Shown: positions 11,401-14,400 of the stretch, one piece after another
How positions within the stretch are numbered: position 1 is the first letter of the stretch
How the letters are laid out: every line of letters begins with the position of its first letter
Virus record (IMG/VR): IMGVR_UViG_2778261642_000012
Span: 1 to 20,069 of that record
Origin: a virus
Lineage: Duplodnaviria; Heunggongvirae; Uroviricota; Caudoviricetes
Length of the DNA: 20,069 bases
Reading direction: 5' to 3' (one strand)
Program-made: the position numbers

Positions 11401-14400
11401 TTACCCCCTCATTCAAACGGGCTTTCCAGGCTTTGAAGGCTGCAGATTTTGAATTGCCACCAGCACGTTTGGGGTATGCCAGCCATGCCTGCTCAAACTC
11501 CGGAGAGTATTCCGGTCGGTTTGAACGAACTCGCACAGACTCATCAGCAGATGCACCAACAGCTATTGGTTCATTGACTGGTTCTTTGACTGGTTCAAAA
11601 GAGTGACTGGTTCTGGGTGAATCTCCTGCACCACCCCCTGGTGCAACTCCTGCACTACCTGGTGAATTTGCTGCACCAGATAGTGAATTATTTGCACTAC
11701 CCCCTAGTGAATCTCCTGCACCATCAAGATGAAGGAGATAGATATTACTTGAGTTACCTTTTTCACCTTTCCGGGTGACTTTTTTTACCAGCCCGGAATC
11801 ACAAAGGGCCGCAATATGATTCATCACAGAACGTTTGCTAATCTCGCACTGGTCAGCAATATGCTGGTAGCTGGGCCAGCACTCACCCTGATCGCTGGCA
11901 TTATCAGCCAGCTTGATCAGAACCAGTTTTCGCAATGGATTACCCACTCGAATTTTCATCGCTTTAACCATCAGCTCCATACTCATGCTGCACCTCCGAG
12001 ATGCTTCATGTTTTTTCCGGAGCAAAAGGCTATAAGCGGCATACTGATGCGGTAATTACGGCCCAGCGGTTCACAAATCACCTTCTGACATTCACGGTCA
12101 ACCAGGCTAACACGTAGAACATGCCCTGCAGGTGTGGTGTACCACTGACCCGGACGAGGACAACGGAAAGTCTGATTGGTAAACCGTTTGAAAATATTCC
12201 GGATCATTTGCGCCCCCTTACCTCTGAAGGGTTCAGCGACAAATTTATGAGGCAGGCCAGTGCCGAAGCATCATTAATATAGTCATACAAGCTAACAGCC
12301 AGCGGAGATTCGGCTTTTGCCAACATAGGATAAAGCTGCTGCAGCCAGACCTGATGAATTGATGAAATGTAGGAATAGAGAACGCTGGCGTTATGTGCAA
12401 CGTCGCTCAGTACAGAGGGATTTGAAAGCTGTTTCTCCATCTGGTTAAAGGCATTGATGTATGCCTCTTTGAACTGGGCAGCACGTTTACCAGTGAAACC
12501 CATAGCAAGAAACGCAAAGCCGTCGCGGGTTATTTGGTAGCAAGGAAGTTTGCGACCTGTGCAATCAGTGTAATCACTCACCGAAAAATTGCGGGCAGTG
12601 AATGATGCTGAGCATTCAAGCGTACGGATCTTTTTCAGTACATCGTCATGACGTTTGGAGAAGAAGTTGGCAACAGCCAGGGATGAAGTAACAGCCTGAC
12701 CATCAACGATGGCAATTTCAGGTTGAGTGAGGGTTGGGATCGTAGCCATGATGGCAGCCTCTTTGGTGATTTTTAATAACTCACCACCAAGGCTTTCCAC
12801 GACCTTATTGGTGGTGAGACGTACAGGGGTGGAAATACCGGTCACCAAAGAACCCGGCCCAACCGAAGTTGGCCCTGCACGCCCCACCATAATTTGGGCG
12901 TAATGCTGCTCATGACACAAAAAAACCGCAAGAGCGCGGTTGTGCGCTTTGGTGAATTCCGGGTTTCCACGCCCGGCACCCGTTTTATAAGGTGCCTGAA
13001 CAGTGTAACGTCCCGGAATGGCAGAATCAATGTGCTGGTGGTCCTTCACACTCAACAAAATCACGCCTGAATTTCCACAAAGGACTAAAGCACTCATGCG
13101 GGTAGTCTTTGCGAAGATAGATAACGCGCTGTGTTTCTGGTTCCCAACGAATAACATGGACATAAAGCCCTCTTCCGTCACGAAACCAGCGGTTAAGTTC
13201 CTGCACAACTCGCCCCCCACAGTCAGGTAAAGTTCTCTGTGGTTACTTACAGCCAGGTGATTTGGTAATCTGCATTCATGCCGTAACAACAGGTGTTCAG
13301 CGACACTGACCACCAGCTGTTGCGACAAACGGTTATTTGCCGTTACACTGTTCATGCGTTAGTTTCTCCACAGACACAAAACGCCACGACGCCCGGAGCT
13401 GCACACTCGCGGGCGTCACTCTTTTCTGGAGCGCAGAAGATTTTGTAGACCAGTGCTGCATGTTCCTGGAGCTTCGAAATTGACAGATACAACTCATCAT
13501 TAATTGCTGTCTGCTCGTGTGGCTCCACGACCCCATCTTCGATTGCCGAACGAATCTGCTTTGAGTAATTCCCGATCTGTTCGATGACTTCCAGCAGGCG
13601 CTGGTTTATATCGGCGTTCTCTACTTCCTCAATTTCAGGAAGCGATACGAACACCCCACCAGCAGACTGTGCGACAGCATCCGCAATGTAGTGAGTGCCA
13701 GCCGCGCGCTGTAAAACCATTGCCCATCCCAGCGGGAAAATCTGATCGCCATCTGCACGAAGGCGGTTGAATAAAGCGTTCTCTGTTACATCCAGCCAGT
13801 CAGCAGCTTCAGCGTAACCCCCAGGCAATGCCGCGATAGTTTTTCTGACAGCTTTCACGTACCACTCAGGTTGTTTTTCCACTTTCCAGTGATGCTTACC
13901 CACGGCTTACCTCCTGTTCCTGTGGTTTAAACCCATTCTGGTTTTGGCTAGATTGAAAACGTGCCGGATAAAGAATCTGCATTTCGCTGATTTCACCCTT
14001 AAAAAAATTGGCCAGACGTTCTGCAAGATCGATAGATGGAATTTGTTCCAGTCTTTCAATACGACTCAGCGTCGCTGGATTGACCTGAACGCCCGCAGCA
14101 ACATGCTGCAAAGTAAATCCGTGCGCCTTACGCACATTCCGTAATGGTGATTGCATATAACCTCCACATATTGCGTGATGAGCATATTATTTCACGCAAA
14201 TATTTTGCGCAAGTTGATTTGCTTAACGCGCAATAAAGAAATGTAATAAACGCATGAACATAGGAAATCGAGTCAGACAACTTCGCCAGGCGAAGAACAT
14301 GAAAATCGCCGATCTCGCTGAAGCAATAGGAGTGGATGCGGCGAATATCTCGCGCCTCGAAACAGGTAAGCAGAAACAATTCACTGAACAAGCCCTGAGT

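What the first reader, a model, noticed from the sequence alone, without database searches (positions are those of the whole stretch)
12204..13355. Intrinsic terminator inside a 383-aa ORF: probable mis-fused gene boundary with hidden coding or RNA upstream
The Rha-like domain starts right after an internal ATG (12747) that has its own AAGAGG SD. About 170 nt upstream, on the coding strand, is a GC hairpin followed by a T-run (12919-12941). A second frame is open over 13018-13206 on the minus strand (...RWFRDGRGLYVHVIRWEPETQRVIYLRKDYPHECFSPLWKFRRDFVECEGPPAH) with a GTG preceded by GGGGGG, ending ~75 nt before that terminator. The upstream 600 bp may therefore hold a separate small gene, a frameshifted gene or a structured RNA rather than an N-terminal extension of Rha.
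Basis: seen in the sequence. Interest (0 to 1): 0.5.

Follow-up and report, generated by a model that had tools for sequence, protein, structure and literature searches.

The report
RNA immunity switch inside Rha gene
The terminator inside the 383-codon "Rha" reading frame is the end of a small RNA (IsrK) that, with a second small RNA (C4) just downstream, forms a known P4/P1/Gifsy-1-type RNA lock on a prophage antirepressor gene, so this is a real but already described kind of regulatory module.

Summary
The hairpin plus T-run at 12941-12919 (minus strand) is the intrinsic terminator of an IsrK-like sRNA (12995-12919, Rfam 67.9 bits). A C4/CI-type antisense RNA follows at 12894-12807 (83.6 bits). 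The 59-codon frame at 13206-13027 is a real DUF4222 gene. Two C4 segments (a', b') are complementary to boxes in IsrK (a1, b1) and to boxes just upstream of the Rha start (a2, b2; b2 abuts the Shine-Dalgarno). Across 96 related modules these boxes co-vary, with 43 b' variants. In close relatives of this prophage the a1-to-b2 cassette is swapped between about 99% identical flanks.

"Mis-fused ORF" is only partly right. The long frame has stops across the RNA genes in 6 of 96 modules, against 83 and 95 of 96 for the other two frames. It usually starts upstream of the internal promoter, often at an ATGA overlap with the previous gene, as it does here at 13355. Its variation shows no codon-position bias. 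This matches the nested eta/kil genes of phage P4, whose eta frame also hits Pfam Phage_ASH. Translation from 13355 and the regulatory outcome are inferred, not shown. New member of a known kind; modest interest.

The parts
13352..13903 (-). Upstream gene: cII-like YmfL (Pfam Phage_CP76). Its TGA stop (13354-13352) overlaps the ATG of the long frame (ATGA).
   Evidence: E 1.2e-14; annotated ymfL
12204..13355 (-). Long 'eta-like' reading frame (383 codons). It starts at the ATGA overlap with cII and runs through the leader, DUF4222 (in another frame), the IsrK promoter, IsrK and its terminator, and C4. It continues in frame into Rha.
   Evidence: Pfam Phage_ASH hits aa 117-213, and the P4 eta frame hits the same family.
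13207..13352 (-). Leader between the cII stop and the DUF4222 start. No frame shows codon-position bias. The frame-preserving 6-nt indel in ST64B-like relatives lies here.
13027..13206 (-). DUF4222 small protein gene (59 aa, GTG start after a G-run). This is a real gene, read in a different frame from the long ORF.
   Evidence: E 9.5e-14. DUF4222 frame 64-90% aa identity where the long frame is 32-71%; variation by codon position 0.05/0.07/0.29. PGAP calls it in some genomes.
13002..13030 (-). Putative internal promoter of IsrK. The -35 is TTGATT (13030-13025, overlapping the DUF4222 stop TGA at 13029-13027), then a 17-nt spacer and the -10 TACACT (13007-13002), 6 nt before 12995.
   Evidence: Read from sequence. 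TTG..17 nt..TA...T is conserved at a fixed distance in 31 distinct upstream contexts, and similarity breaks just upstream of the -35. Only 8 of 12 consensus matches, so the scan did not flag it. Function is inferred from the Gifsy-1 isrK promoter.
12919..12995 (-). It carries target boxes a1 (12970-12964, GTGGAAA) and b1 (12955-12947, TCACCAAAG).
   Evidence: (RF01394, 67.9 bits)
12888..12890 (-). AUG at +106 of the IsrK transcript, positionally equivalent to the first AUG of Gifsy-1 orf45. Here it is in frame with Rha (229-codon isoform possible).
   Evidence: TTATGG is invariant in 43 homologues.
12807..12894 (-). C4/CI-type antisense RNA. It has a long closing stem, a tetraloop hairpin, a second hairpin whose loop is b' (12850-12842, CTTTGGTGA), and a single-stranded a' (12835-12829, TTTCCAC). 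The 3' end is CACCACCA.
   Evidence: RF01695, 83.6 bits; -44.6 kcal/mol, z -4.1; stems 100% paired, 13 pairs with compensatory changes
12758..12800 (-). Downstream target region: a2 (12800-12794, GTGGAAA) and b2 (12769-12761, TCACCAAAG), which overlaps the Shine-Dalgarno AAGAGG (12763-12758).
12741..12806 (-). Local hairpin that pairs the Shine-Dalgarno/b2 and the AUG in cis (-27.4 kcal/mol, z -5.7). An alternative helix forms between the C4 3' strand CUCACCACC and the downstream GGUGGUGAG.
   Evidence: only the alternative helix is recovered as a consensus
12204..12749 (-). Short nested gene: 181-aa Rha-family regulator/antirepressor, with its start at the position homologous to P4 kil.
   Evidence: codon-position bias 0.78/0.57/1.20.

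Best explanation
The region is an IsrK-C4 (P4 seqA-CI type) RNA immunity module that locks the translation of a Rha-family antirepressor. It sits in the early rightward operon of an E. coli lambdoid prophage, in the order cI / cro / cII(YmfL) / DUF4222 / module / Rha / orf74 / replication.

Shown by sequence and comparison:
- An IsrK-like sRNA gene ends at the noticed terminator.
- A C4-like RNA gene lies 24 nt downstream.
- Two C4 segments (a', b') are complementary both to boxes in IsrK (a1, b1) and to boxes ahead of the Rha start (a2, b2), with b2 overlapping the Shine-Dalgarno. All of these co-vary across many variants.
- DUF4222 is a separate protein gene.
- The long frame is kept open through all of this.

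Inferred by analogy with P1 c4-icd-ant, P4 seqA-CI-seqC/eta-kil and Gifsy-1 isrK-orf45-anrP:
- In the lysogen, a constitutive internal promoter (-10 at 13007-13002) makes the 77-nt IsrK, which stops at the terminator.
- Read-through transcripts are processed (RNase P type) into C4.
- C4 pairs with a2/b2 and blocks ribosome entry at the Rha start. The start is also buried in a local hairpin.
- Free IsrK carries decoy copies of the targets (a1/b1). It can titrate C4 or refold the read-through RNA, which allows translation from the AUG at 12890 and/or 12749, so that Rha is made and can push the prophage towards induction.
- Transcripts coming from the upstream early promoter instead carry the ATG at 13355, coupled to the cII stop. 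Ribosomes reading the long frame run across the terminator and the C4 fold. Those transcripts would therefore escape the RNA lock and yield a long Rha form, as eta does in P4.
- The a/b boxes are the specificity determinant and are exchanged as a cassette.
For: RNA genes:
- Rfam gathering-level, full-length hits to isrK and C4.
- The same pair occurs in the same order in P4 and Gifsy-1.
- C4 folds at -44.6 kcal/mol, z -4.1.
- Stems are 100% paired with compensatory changes; covariation score 0.287 against 0.137 in shuffles, 0 of 500 shuffles as high.

Target pairing:
- a1/b1 with a'/b': 98.4% of cells paired, 213 double changes, score 0.865 against 0.22 shuffled, slid controls 31-49%.
- b' with b2: 92% paired.
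- Own-module against mismatched-module full pairing: b-up 66/96 vs 0.2%, b-down 60/96 vs 0.9%, a-up 82/96 vs 15%, a-down 94/96 vs 6%. There are 43 b' variants and 61 a'/b' combinations.
- The Gifsy-1 compensatory mutants G28A/C162U and G31A/C159U map by position onto the region of the a1-a' helix. I made that mapping by hand, not with a tool.

Cassette swap: flanks are 98-100% identical, while the 3' half of isrK, C4 and the Shine-Dalgarno leader are 42-71% identical.

Module boundary at the -35.

Long frame:
- Stops in 6/96 modules against 83/96 and 95/96 in the other frames. Polymorphic stop sites number 12 (11 seen once, one twice) against 49 and 51.
- Open for at least 300 nt in 69/96.
- First ATG is ATGA in 32/48 contexts.
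- In the tandem array of L238 each long ORF overlaps the previous stop by ATGA.
- P(open by chance over 13355-12996) about 0.0025.
- The P4 eta frame and this frame both hit Phage_ASH and both end ...EAAIMAT at the nested start.

Literature:
- P4 eta/kil/CI logic as summarised in PMC10111431.
- IsrK-C4 equated with seqA-CI, and noted in lambdoid prophages, in PMC3632133.
- Gifsy-1 mechanism in PMC4825925.
- RNase P processing of C4/CI in PMC5499578.
Against: - There are no expression data for this locus. The transcription start, processing, pairing outcome and any translation from 13355 are all inferred.
- Variation in the long frame over IsrK and C4 has no third-position bias (0.74/0.76/0.68 and 0.77/0.78/0.78). 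Translation is therefore supported only by stop avoidance and ATGA starts.
- Translating the long frame requires a second frame to be read across the DUF4222 gene.
- The 96 modules are dereplicated but not phylogenetically independent.
- Some copies have a broken long frame and still persist: 6 of 96 modules, plus L070 and L076.
- By my reading of the sequence, Gifsy-1, the only experimentally dissected IsrK locus, lacks a spanning frame, because antQ ends in that frame at the -35.
- IsrK alone folds no better than shuffles (z -1.4).
- The promoter matches only 8 of 12 consensus positions (one search did not list it).
- The direction of regulation is unsettled. In P1 and P4 the C4/CI RNA represses. 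In Gifsy-1 IsrK activates, and constitutive expression of orf45 (STnc1160) made IsrK-mediated growth arrest more pronounced rather than relieving it.
Confidence: 0.72

Rival explanations
1. Pure annotation artefact. Only DUF4222, the two RNAs and the 181-aa Rha are real, and the 383-codon frame is never translated. It stays open only because the conserved RNA sequence happens to lack stops in that register.
For: No codon-position bias in the long frame over the RNA genes or the leader. The DUF4222 frame, not the long frame, is protein-constrained at 13206-13027. PGAP picks different starts in different genomes. A few relatives have a broken long frame. By my reading, Gifsy-1 works without a spanning frame.
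Against: Stops are polymorphic at 49 and 51 positions in the other two frames, but there are only 12 rare sites (11 seen once, one twice) in this frame, including within hypervariable boxes. The frame continues upstream of the RNA module into unrelated sequence contexts and starts at ATGA overlaps far more often than the roughly 25% a random base would give (32/48). P about 0.0025 for the stretch upstream of IsrK (13355-12996) to be open by chance. Indels between variants are mostly multiples of 3. P4 eta is reported to be translated and functionally important (PMC10111431).
Confidence: 0.2
2. A genuine 383-aa two-domain antirepressor, in which the 'Ash' region (aa 117-213) is a folded protein domain fused to Rha. 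The Rfam hits would then be secondary features of its mRNA.
For: Pfam Phage_ASH match E 2.3e-15. The 383-385-aa protein is annotated in mEp460, Stx2a phages and ST64B. PMC10111431 lists Phage_ASH among the 'Bro network' domains.
Against: Variation over this stretch is flat across codon positions, unlike the Rha and DUF4222 controls. The most variable sites are the a/b boxes, and these co-vary as RNA pairs. Stem changes are compensatory at the RNA level. The N-terminal 116 codons overlap a better-conserved gene in another frame.
Confidence: 0.05
3. The hairpin is just an ordinary operon terminator or attenuator separating DUF4222 from Rha, with no sRNA role.
For: Terminator-like sites are not rare in this region (6 found against 3.1 expected). 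IsrK alone has an unremarkable folding z-score.
Against: It is the 3' end of a full-length isrK match. A conserved promoter-like element sits at a fixed distance upstream. The RNA carries the co-varying a1/b1 boxes. The homologous Gifsy-1 RNA has been detected and shown to act in trans.
Confidence: 0.02

Closest known systems
Satellite phage P4 immunity region: PLE - seqA - CI RNA (seqB) - seqC, inside the nested genes eta and kil
   Same: - The same two Rfam families occur in the same order (isrK hit on seqA, C4 hit on CI).
- The CI/C4 loop is complementary to an upstream and a downstream site (L085 row).
- A long ORF starts upstream of the internal promoter, spans both RNAs and matches Pfam Phage_ASH.
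- The nested short gene starts at the homologous ...EAAIMAT codon.
- The long ORF is coupled to the upstream gene (PMC10111431).
   Different: - Here the nested gene is a 181-aa Rha-domain regulator, not the 65-aa Kil.
- The host element is a lambdoid prophage with a protein CI repressor, so the RNA is not the primary immunity factor.
- seqA lies 79-80 nt upstream of the C4 core rather than 163 nt.
- A DUF4222 gene is overlapped by the long frame.
- The Rho-dependent terminator timm was not looked for.
Salmonella Gifsy-1 isrK - orf45 (STnc1160) - anrP locus (Hershko-Shalev et al. 2016, PMC4825925)
   Same: - IsrK with its own promoter and a leaky terminator, and a C4-like stable RNA downstream.
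- An AUG at about +106/107.
- A downstream antirepressor-like gene with a GGAGG-type Shine-Dalgarno next to b2.
- By my positional mapping, the experimentally verified IsrK G28/G31 to C162/C159 helix falls in the region of the a1-a' pairing that co-varies here.
- The stop codon of the upstream gene lies inside the -35 hexamer in both loci.
   Different: - In Gifsy-1 orf45 ends in AUGA overlapping anrP (+1 frame). Here the equivalent frame runs in frame into Rha.
- In Gifsy-1 the module sits after the late antiterminator gene antQ and has no ORF spanning the promoter (my reading). Here it sits between cII and the replication genes and has the 383-codon spanning frame.
- The published model does not invoke C4 pairing at the antirepressor RBS.
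Phage P1/P7 immI: a1b1 - c4 - a2b2 - icd - ant (own knowledge: Citron and Schuster 1990; Biere et al. 1992; Heinrich et al. 1995; RNase P processing cited in PMC5499578)
   Same: - A C4 RNA with two recognition segments (a', b').
- Duplicate target pairs upstream and downstream, with b2 at a ribosome-binding site.
- The output is an antirepressor.
- Specificity differs between related phages through changes in the boxes (the P1 versus P7 paradigm). Here the cassette is swapped between identical flanks.
   Different: - No icd-like coupling gene.
- The upstream targets here are packaged as a terminated sRNA (IsrK).
- The Rfam c4-a1b1 model was not reported for this window at gathering level. It scored 48.1 bits in Gifsy-1 and 44.1 bits in P4.
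- The antirepressor belongs to the Rha family.

Membership tests
Rfam RF01394 isrK | Covariance-model score at or above the gathering threshold over the full model | tested here: met
   67.9 bits against 50, model positions 1-77 of 77, E 7e-13
Rfam RF01394 isrK | Two 5' hairpins plus a Rho-independent terminator, conserved in relatives | tested here: met
   Hairpins 1 and 2 are 86-87% paired with compensatory changes, and the T-run is invariant. The terminator helix scores only 55% on the MAFFT alignment because two stem types are mis-registered.
Rfam RF01394 isrK | Independent transcription from its own promoter | tested here: inconclusive
   TTGATT-17-TACACT lies 6 nt upstream and is conserved in 31 contexts, but it matches only 8 of 12 consensus positions and there are no transcript data.
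Rfam RF01394 isrK | Hfq binding; trans-activation of the downstream ORF | not testable with these tools
   Known only for Gifsy-1
Rfam RF01695 C4 antisense RNA (P1 c4 / P4 CI) | Covariance-model score at or above the gathering threshold; closing stem plus two internal hairpins | tested here: met
   83.6 bits against 45. Stems 100% paired with 13 pairs changed on both sides. z -4.1.
Rfam RF01695 C4 antisense RNA (P1 c4 / P4 CI) | a'/b' complementary to downstream targets a2/b2, with b2 at the RBS of the controlled gene | tested here: met
   b2 at 12769-12761 overlaps the Shine-Dalgarno at 12763-12758. b'-b2 is 92% paired. Full own-module pairing is 60/96 for b and 94/96 for a, against 0.9% and 6% for mismatched modules.
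Rfam RF01695 C4 antisense RNA (P1 c4 / P4 CI) | Upstream duplicate targets a1/b1 (P4 seqA) | tested here: met
   98.4% paired, covariation score 0.865 against 0.22
Rfam RF01695 C4 antisense RNA (P1 c4 / P4 CI) | Processing from a longer transcript by RNase P; repression of the target in vivo | not testable with these tools
   The 3' CACCACCA is conserved. Processing is known for P1 and P4.
P4-type nested eta/kil arrangement | Long ORF that begins upstream of the internal promoter and spans seqA and CI in one frame | tested here: met
   13355-12204 is open. The frame is conserved in 90/96 modules. Both this frame and P4 eta hit Phage_ASH.
P4-type nested eta/kil arrangement | Translational coupling of the long ORF to the upstream gene | tested here: inconclusive
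   ATGA overlap with the cII-like stop at 13355-13352. ATGA occurs in 32/48 contexts. Coupling itself was not tested.
P4-type nested eta/kil arrangement | Shorter nested gene starting right after seqC, in frame | tested here: met
   The ATG at 12749 follows b2 and the Shine-Dalgarno. P4 has ...EAAIMATTL and the window ...EAAIMATIP.
P4-type nested eta/kil arrangement | Translation of the long ORF prevents immunity-specific, Rho-dependent termination | not testable with these tools
   Reported for P4 only
Gifsy-1 isrK-orf45-anrP | orf45 stop codon overlaps the antirepressor start (AUGA coupling) | tested here: not met
   Here the frame from ATG 12890 continues in frame through ATG 12749. The AUGA type exists in other modules with the ATG 1 nt closer.
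Pfam PF09669 Phage_pRha | HMM score above the gathering threshold | tested here: met
   106.2 bits against 29.9
Pfam PF13973 DUF4222 | HMM score above the gathering threshold, with a protein-level conservation signature | tested here: met
   51.1 bits against 27. Third-position bias and higher amino-acid identity than the overlapping frame.

The most novel reading that the evidence does not exclude
The frame that runs through an sRNA gene, its intrinsic terminator and an antisense-RNA gene may be a general, selected 'translation override'. When the region is transcribed from the upstream early promoter, coupled ribosomes would melt the RNA lock. When it is transcribed from the internal promoter, the same DNA would yield the two regulatory RNAs. 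On this reading, Pfam PF10554 (Phage_ASH) is largely the conceptual translation of RNA-constrained sequence rather than a folded domain. The a/b boxes (at least 61 combinations in a sample of 96) would form an exchangeable specificity code, which lets several antirepressor modules coexist, even in tandem arrays, without cross-talk.
Probability: 0.45. Interest if true: 0.45.

Novelty: new member of a known kind. Interest (0 to 1): 0.3.

Why it matters
- **Annotation.** The result explains a recurrent annotation conflict. The same locus is called a 383-aa, a 297-aa or a shorter Rha protein, with or without DUF4222, and the two RNA genes are never annotated. It also identifies what actually gates the antirepressor in a family of E. 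coli, Shigella and Salmonella prophages that includes Stx2-converting phages. The search returned matches in 2996 of 5426 complete E. coli genomes; these include partial matches at 60-90% identity.
- **Induction control.** If the RNA lock works as in P1, P4 and Gifsy-1, it adds an RNA layer to control of prophage induction beside the CI repressor. The specificity boxes would predict which co-resident prophages can cross-regulate.
- **Database curation.** The comparative result suggests the P4 eta principle is widespread, and that the Phage_ASH family should be read with care. The basis is that the frame is kept open without protein-type constraint and has ATGA starts upstream of the internal promoter.

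Tried and rejected
- **Genome-contig scan.** The 15-base degenerate C4 pattern was too loose for 596 Gb. Most of the 120 hits were chance matches in GC-rich genomes, and only 5 real modules came out (L117 Serratia, L122 Aeromonas, L156 Salinisphaera, L170, plus P4-like).
- **Promoter scan.** It did not list the IsrK promoter (8 of 12 matches), so promoter support rests on conservation.
- **a'-a2 pairing on the MAFFT alignment.** It gave 50% because a 3-nt gap was misplaced. I recomputed it without an alignment. The first alignment-free attempt used the wrong search range (a_dn row).
- **Terminator helix on the alignment.** It appears only 55% paired for the same kind of reason: two stem types out of register.
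- **Thermodynamics.** Folding energy alone does not support IsrK (z -1.4).
- **RNAalifold.** It did not recover the hairpin that sequesters the Shine-Dalgarno in the window as a consensus. It recovered only the alternative CACCACC/GGUGGUG helix, so I do not claim the SD hairpin is conserved.
- **Leader 13352-13207.** Codon-position analysis was uninformative because there is too little variation.
- **Forti et al. 1999 (PMC94026).** The paper is not held. P4 eta/kil facts are taken from the summary in PMC10111431 and from my own knowledge.
- **Frameshifted-gene idea.** Rejected. The DUF4222 frame is closed by a TAA about 36-38 nt upstream of its GTG (read by eye). It matches nearly the full Pfam model on its own (profile positions 4-51 of 53).
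- **Structure prediction of the Ash region.** Not run. Only window sequences or database hits can be submitted, and a single-sequence model would not be diagnostic.
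Full report
**1. The observation**

All coordinates below are on the minus strand.
- The hairpin AACCGCGC-TCTT-GCGGTT lies at 12941-12924 and is followed by seven Ts (12925-12919).
- An ATG lies at 12749-12747, eight bases after AAGAGG.
- A 59-codon GTG ORF lies at 13206-13027, behind a run of Gs.
- Pfam places the Rha domain at residues 223-308 of the 383-aa ORF, just after the internal ATG.

A terminator-like site is not remarkable in itself: the scan found 6 in 3 kb against 3.1 expected. What it belongs to is remarkable.

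**2. What is there**

An Rfam scan of the whole window gave two adjacent full-length matches above the curated thresholds on the coding strand.
- isrK lies at 12995-12919 (67.9 bits).
- C4 antisense RNA lies at 12894-12807 (83.6 bits).

The 59-codon ORF matches Pfam DUF4222 (E 9.5e-14). Residues 117-213 of the long ORF correspond to nucleotides 13007-12717, which is the IsrK-plus-C4 stretch. These residues match Pfam Phage_ASH.

The surrounding genes identify a lambdoid prophage early region:
- an S24 CI repressor (14254-14946, plus strand) and a Cro-like HTH protein;
- the cII-like YmfL, followed by the finding region, a 74-aa ORF and a replication protein;
- PerC-like, Dam, KilA-N and DUF968 proteins, antiterminator Q and four tRNAs.

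The DNA is 99% identical to phage mEp460, to phiSTEC1575-Stx2k and to many E. coli chromosomes.

**3. The RNA logic**

I aligned 700 nt upstream of the Rha start from 80 IMG/VR relatives and found a sharp mosaic. The leader, DUF4222, the promoter region and Rha are 98-100% identical. The stretch from the second IsrK hairpin to the Shine-Dalgarno is only 42-71% identical, and it falls into several discrete variants.

Within that cassette, three copies of one 8-9-nt box change together. In the window the box is TCACCAAAG.
- One copy lies in the IsrK linker (b1, 12955-12947).
- A second abuts the Shine-Dalgarno (b2, 12769-12761).
- Its complement lies in the loop of the second C4 hairpin (b', 12850-12842).

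A second box set behaves the same way: GTGGAAA at 12970-12964 (a1) and 12800-12794 (a2), with its complement at 12835-12829 (a').

A pattern scan of viral contigs gave 120 more loci, which reduced to 96 dereplicated modules. The counts are as follows.

| Pairing | Result on the 43-sequence alignment | Full pairing, own module | Full pairing, mismatched module |
|---|---|---|---|
| a1/b1 with a'/b' | 98.4% of cells paired; covariation 0.865 vs 0.22 shuffled; slid controls 31-49% | b-up 66/96, a-up 82/96 | 0.2%, 15% |
| b' with b2 | 92% paired | 60/96 | 0.9% |
| a' with a2 | not reliable on the alignment (misplaced gap) | 94/96 | 6% |

Across the 96 modules there are 43 b' variants and 61 a'/b' combinations. 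The C4 stems are 100% paired, with 13 pairs changed on both sides.

This is the a1b1-c4-a2b2 design of P1/P7 and the seqA-CI-seqC design of P4. P4 itself gives the same two Rfam hits in the same order, and so does Gifsy-1. By my positional mapping, the Gifsy-1 compensatory mutants G28A/C162U and G31A/C159U fall in the region of the a1-a' helix.

A promoter-like TTGATT-17-TACACT ends 6 nt before 12995.
- It is conserved at that distance in 31 sequence contexts.
- Similarity between contexts stops just upstream of the -35. This marks the left edge of the module.
- The DUF4222 stop codon lies inside the -35 hexamer.

**4. Is the 383-codon frame a mistake?**

DUF4222 is clearly a separate gene.
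- Variation in its segment falls on its own third codon positions (0.05/0.07/0.29).
- In diverged loci its protein is 64-90% identical where the overlapping long frame is 32-71% identical.

The long frame is nevertheless not random.
- I fixed the register relative to C4 and looked between the IsrK start and b2. The long frame contains a stop in 6 of 96 modules. The other two frames contain stops in 83 and 95 of 96.
- Stops occur at 49 and 51 different positions in those two frames. The long frame has 12 rare sites, 11 seen once and one twice.
- In 69 of 96 modules the frame in phase with the downstream ATG is open for at least 300 nt, which is beyond the internal promoter. Where the ATG is 1 nt closer, the same C4-register frame is still open and ends in an AUGA overlap, as for Gifsy-1 orf45.
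- The first ATG of the frame lies upstream of the promoter and is ATGA in 32 of 48 distinct contexts. In 19 of these the TGA closes an ORF of at least 40 codons.
- In the window the ATG at 13355 overlaps the TGA of the cII-like gene.
- I shuffled the leader and resampled DUF4222 with synonymous codons. The frame stayed open over 13355-12996 in only 0.25% of trials.

Variation in this frame over IsrK and C4 is flat across codon positions (0.74/0.76/0.68 and 0.77/0.78/0.78). The Rha control gives 0.78/0.57/1.20. The frame therefore looks kept open rather than kept as a protein.

This is the published picture for P4 eta, as summarised in PMC10111431.
- Eta starts upstream of the constitutive promoter and is coupled to the upstream alpA-like gene.
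- It is translated only from the upstream promoter, and its translation prevents immunity-dependent termination.
- The shorter kil is nested at its 3' end.

The P4 eta frame (L085 8812-8168) spans the isrK and C4 hits and matches Phage_ASH over the whole profile (E 4.5e-23). It ends ...EAAIMATTL at the kil start. The window reads ...EAAIMATIP at the Rha start.

**5. Mechanism (inferred)**

The proposed mechanism has two modes.
- **From the internal promoter.** IsrK stops at the terminator, and read-through RNA is processed to C4. RNase P processing is known for C4 and CI, and the 3' CACCACCA is conserved. C4 then pairs with a2/b2 and blocks the Rha ribosome-binding site. In the window this site is also buried in a local hairpin (-27.4 kcal/mol, z -5.7).
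- **Release of the lock.** IsrK carries decoy targets and can titrate or refold the C4 region. In Gifsy-1 IsrK activates orf45 and anrP translation. Here the orf45-equivalent AUG (12890) is in frame with Rha.
- **From the early promoter.** Ribosomes coupled from cII would read the long frame across the terminator and C4 and so override the lock.

Nothing in this section has been measured for this locus. The sign of regulation by C4 and by IsrK is the least certain step, as one search shows for Gifsy-1.

**6. Comparison and novelty**

The equivalence of IsrK-C4 with seqA-CI, and its presence in lambdoid Salmonella prophages, was noted in 2013 (PMC3632133). CI and seqA relatives inside 'Bro network' genes, including Phage_ASH and Phage_pRha proteins, were noted in 2023.

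The window is thus a new member of a known kind. I could not find three of the results stated elsewhere, although each is an extension of known principles rather than a new kind of system:
- the quantified frame conservation without protein-type constraint;
- the ATGA rule for the start of the long frame;
- the cassette exchange between identical flanks.

RefSeq annotates the locus inconsistently and without the RNAs.

**7. Verdict**

| Item | Verdict |
|---|---|
| Observation | confirmed |
| Interest | 0.3 |

Noticed in passing
L238:9289-11266 (also L208, L221, L279, L297, L303): Two or three complete IsrK-C4-short-Rha-like modules stand in tandem with a period of about 656 nt. Each has a different b' box. 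Each 219-220-codon spanning ORF overlaps the previous stop by ATGA. This looks like an array of independently locked antirepressor-like genes.
   Followed up: partly
window 12717-13007 (-) and L085:8168-8812 (-): Pfam PF10554 'Ash protein family' matches exactly the translation of the IsrK + C4 RNA stretch, both here and in P4 eta. Variation there shows no codon-position bias. The family's conservation may therefore be RNA-driven rather than protein-driven.
   Followed up: partly
L326 and L327 (RefSeq E. coli chromosomes, same locus): PGAP annotates the same DNA either as one 383-aa Rha regulator or as DUF4222 plus an overlapping 297-aa Rha protein. No ncRNA feature is given in either case.
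   Followed up: yes
window 13025-13030 and L328:34346-34351: In both the window (DUF4222 stop) and Gifsy-1 (antQ stop), the TGA of the upstream gene lies inside the -35 hexamer TTGAnn of the IsrK promoter.
   Followed up: no
window 11983-12207 (-): A 74-aa ORF overlaps the Rha stop by ATGA and has no Pfam match. It recurs downstream of many modules at 52-77% amino-acid identity, so it is probably a real small gene of unknown function. By eye it resembles DUF4222.
   Followed up: partly
window 12781-12815 (-): The 3' strand of the C4 closing stem (CUCACCACC) can pair instead with the downstream GGUGGUGAG. RNAalifold picks this as the only consensus helix in the C4-to-ATG leader. It may be an alternative conformer like structures A and B of Gifsy-1.
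   Followed up: partly
window 5332-5641 (-): A cluster of four tRNA genes (Met-CAT, Lys-TTT, Thr-TGT, Gly-TCC) lies downstream of the antiterminator Q gene (6568-7320). That Q protein also matches a DnaJ-type zinc-finger domain.
   Followed up: no
L117, L122, L156, L170: Complete modules with matching a/b boxes and the GGAG-N-ATGGCTAC start also occur in Serratia plymuthica, Aeromonas popoffii and a Salinisphaera genome. The design therefore extends beyond Enterobacteriaceae.
   Followed up: no
L070, L076 (relatives of the window locus): A few near-identical prophages carry 1-nt indels that break the long frame (open for only 492 and 267 nt), while the RNA genes and Rha stay intact. They are natural test cases for whether the long frame matters.
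   Followed up: no
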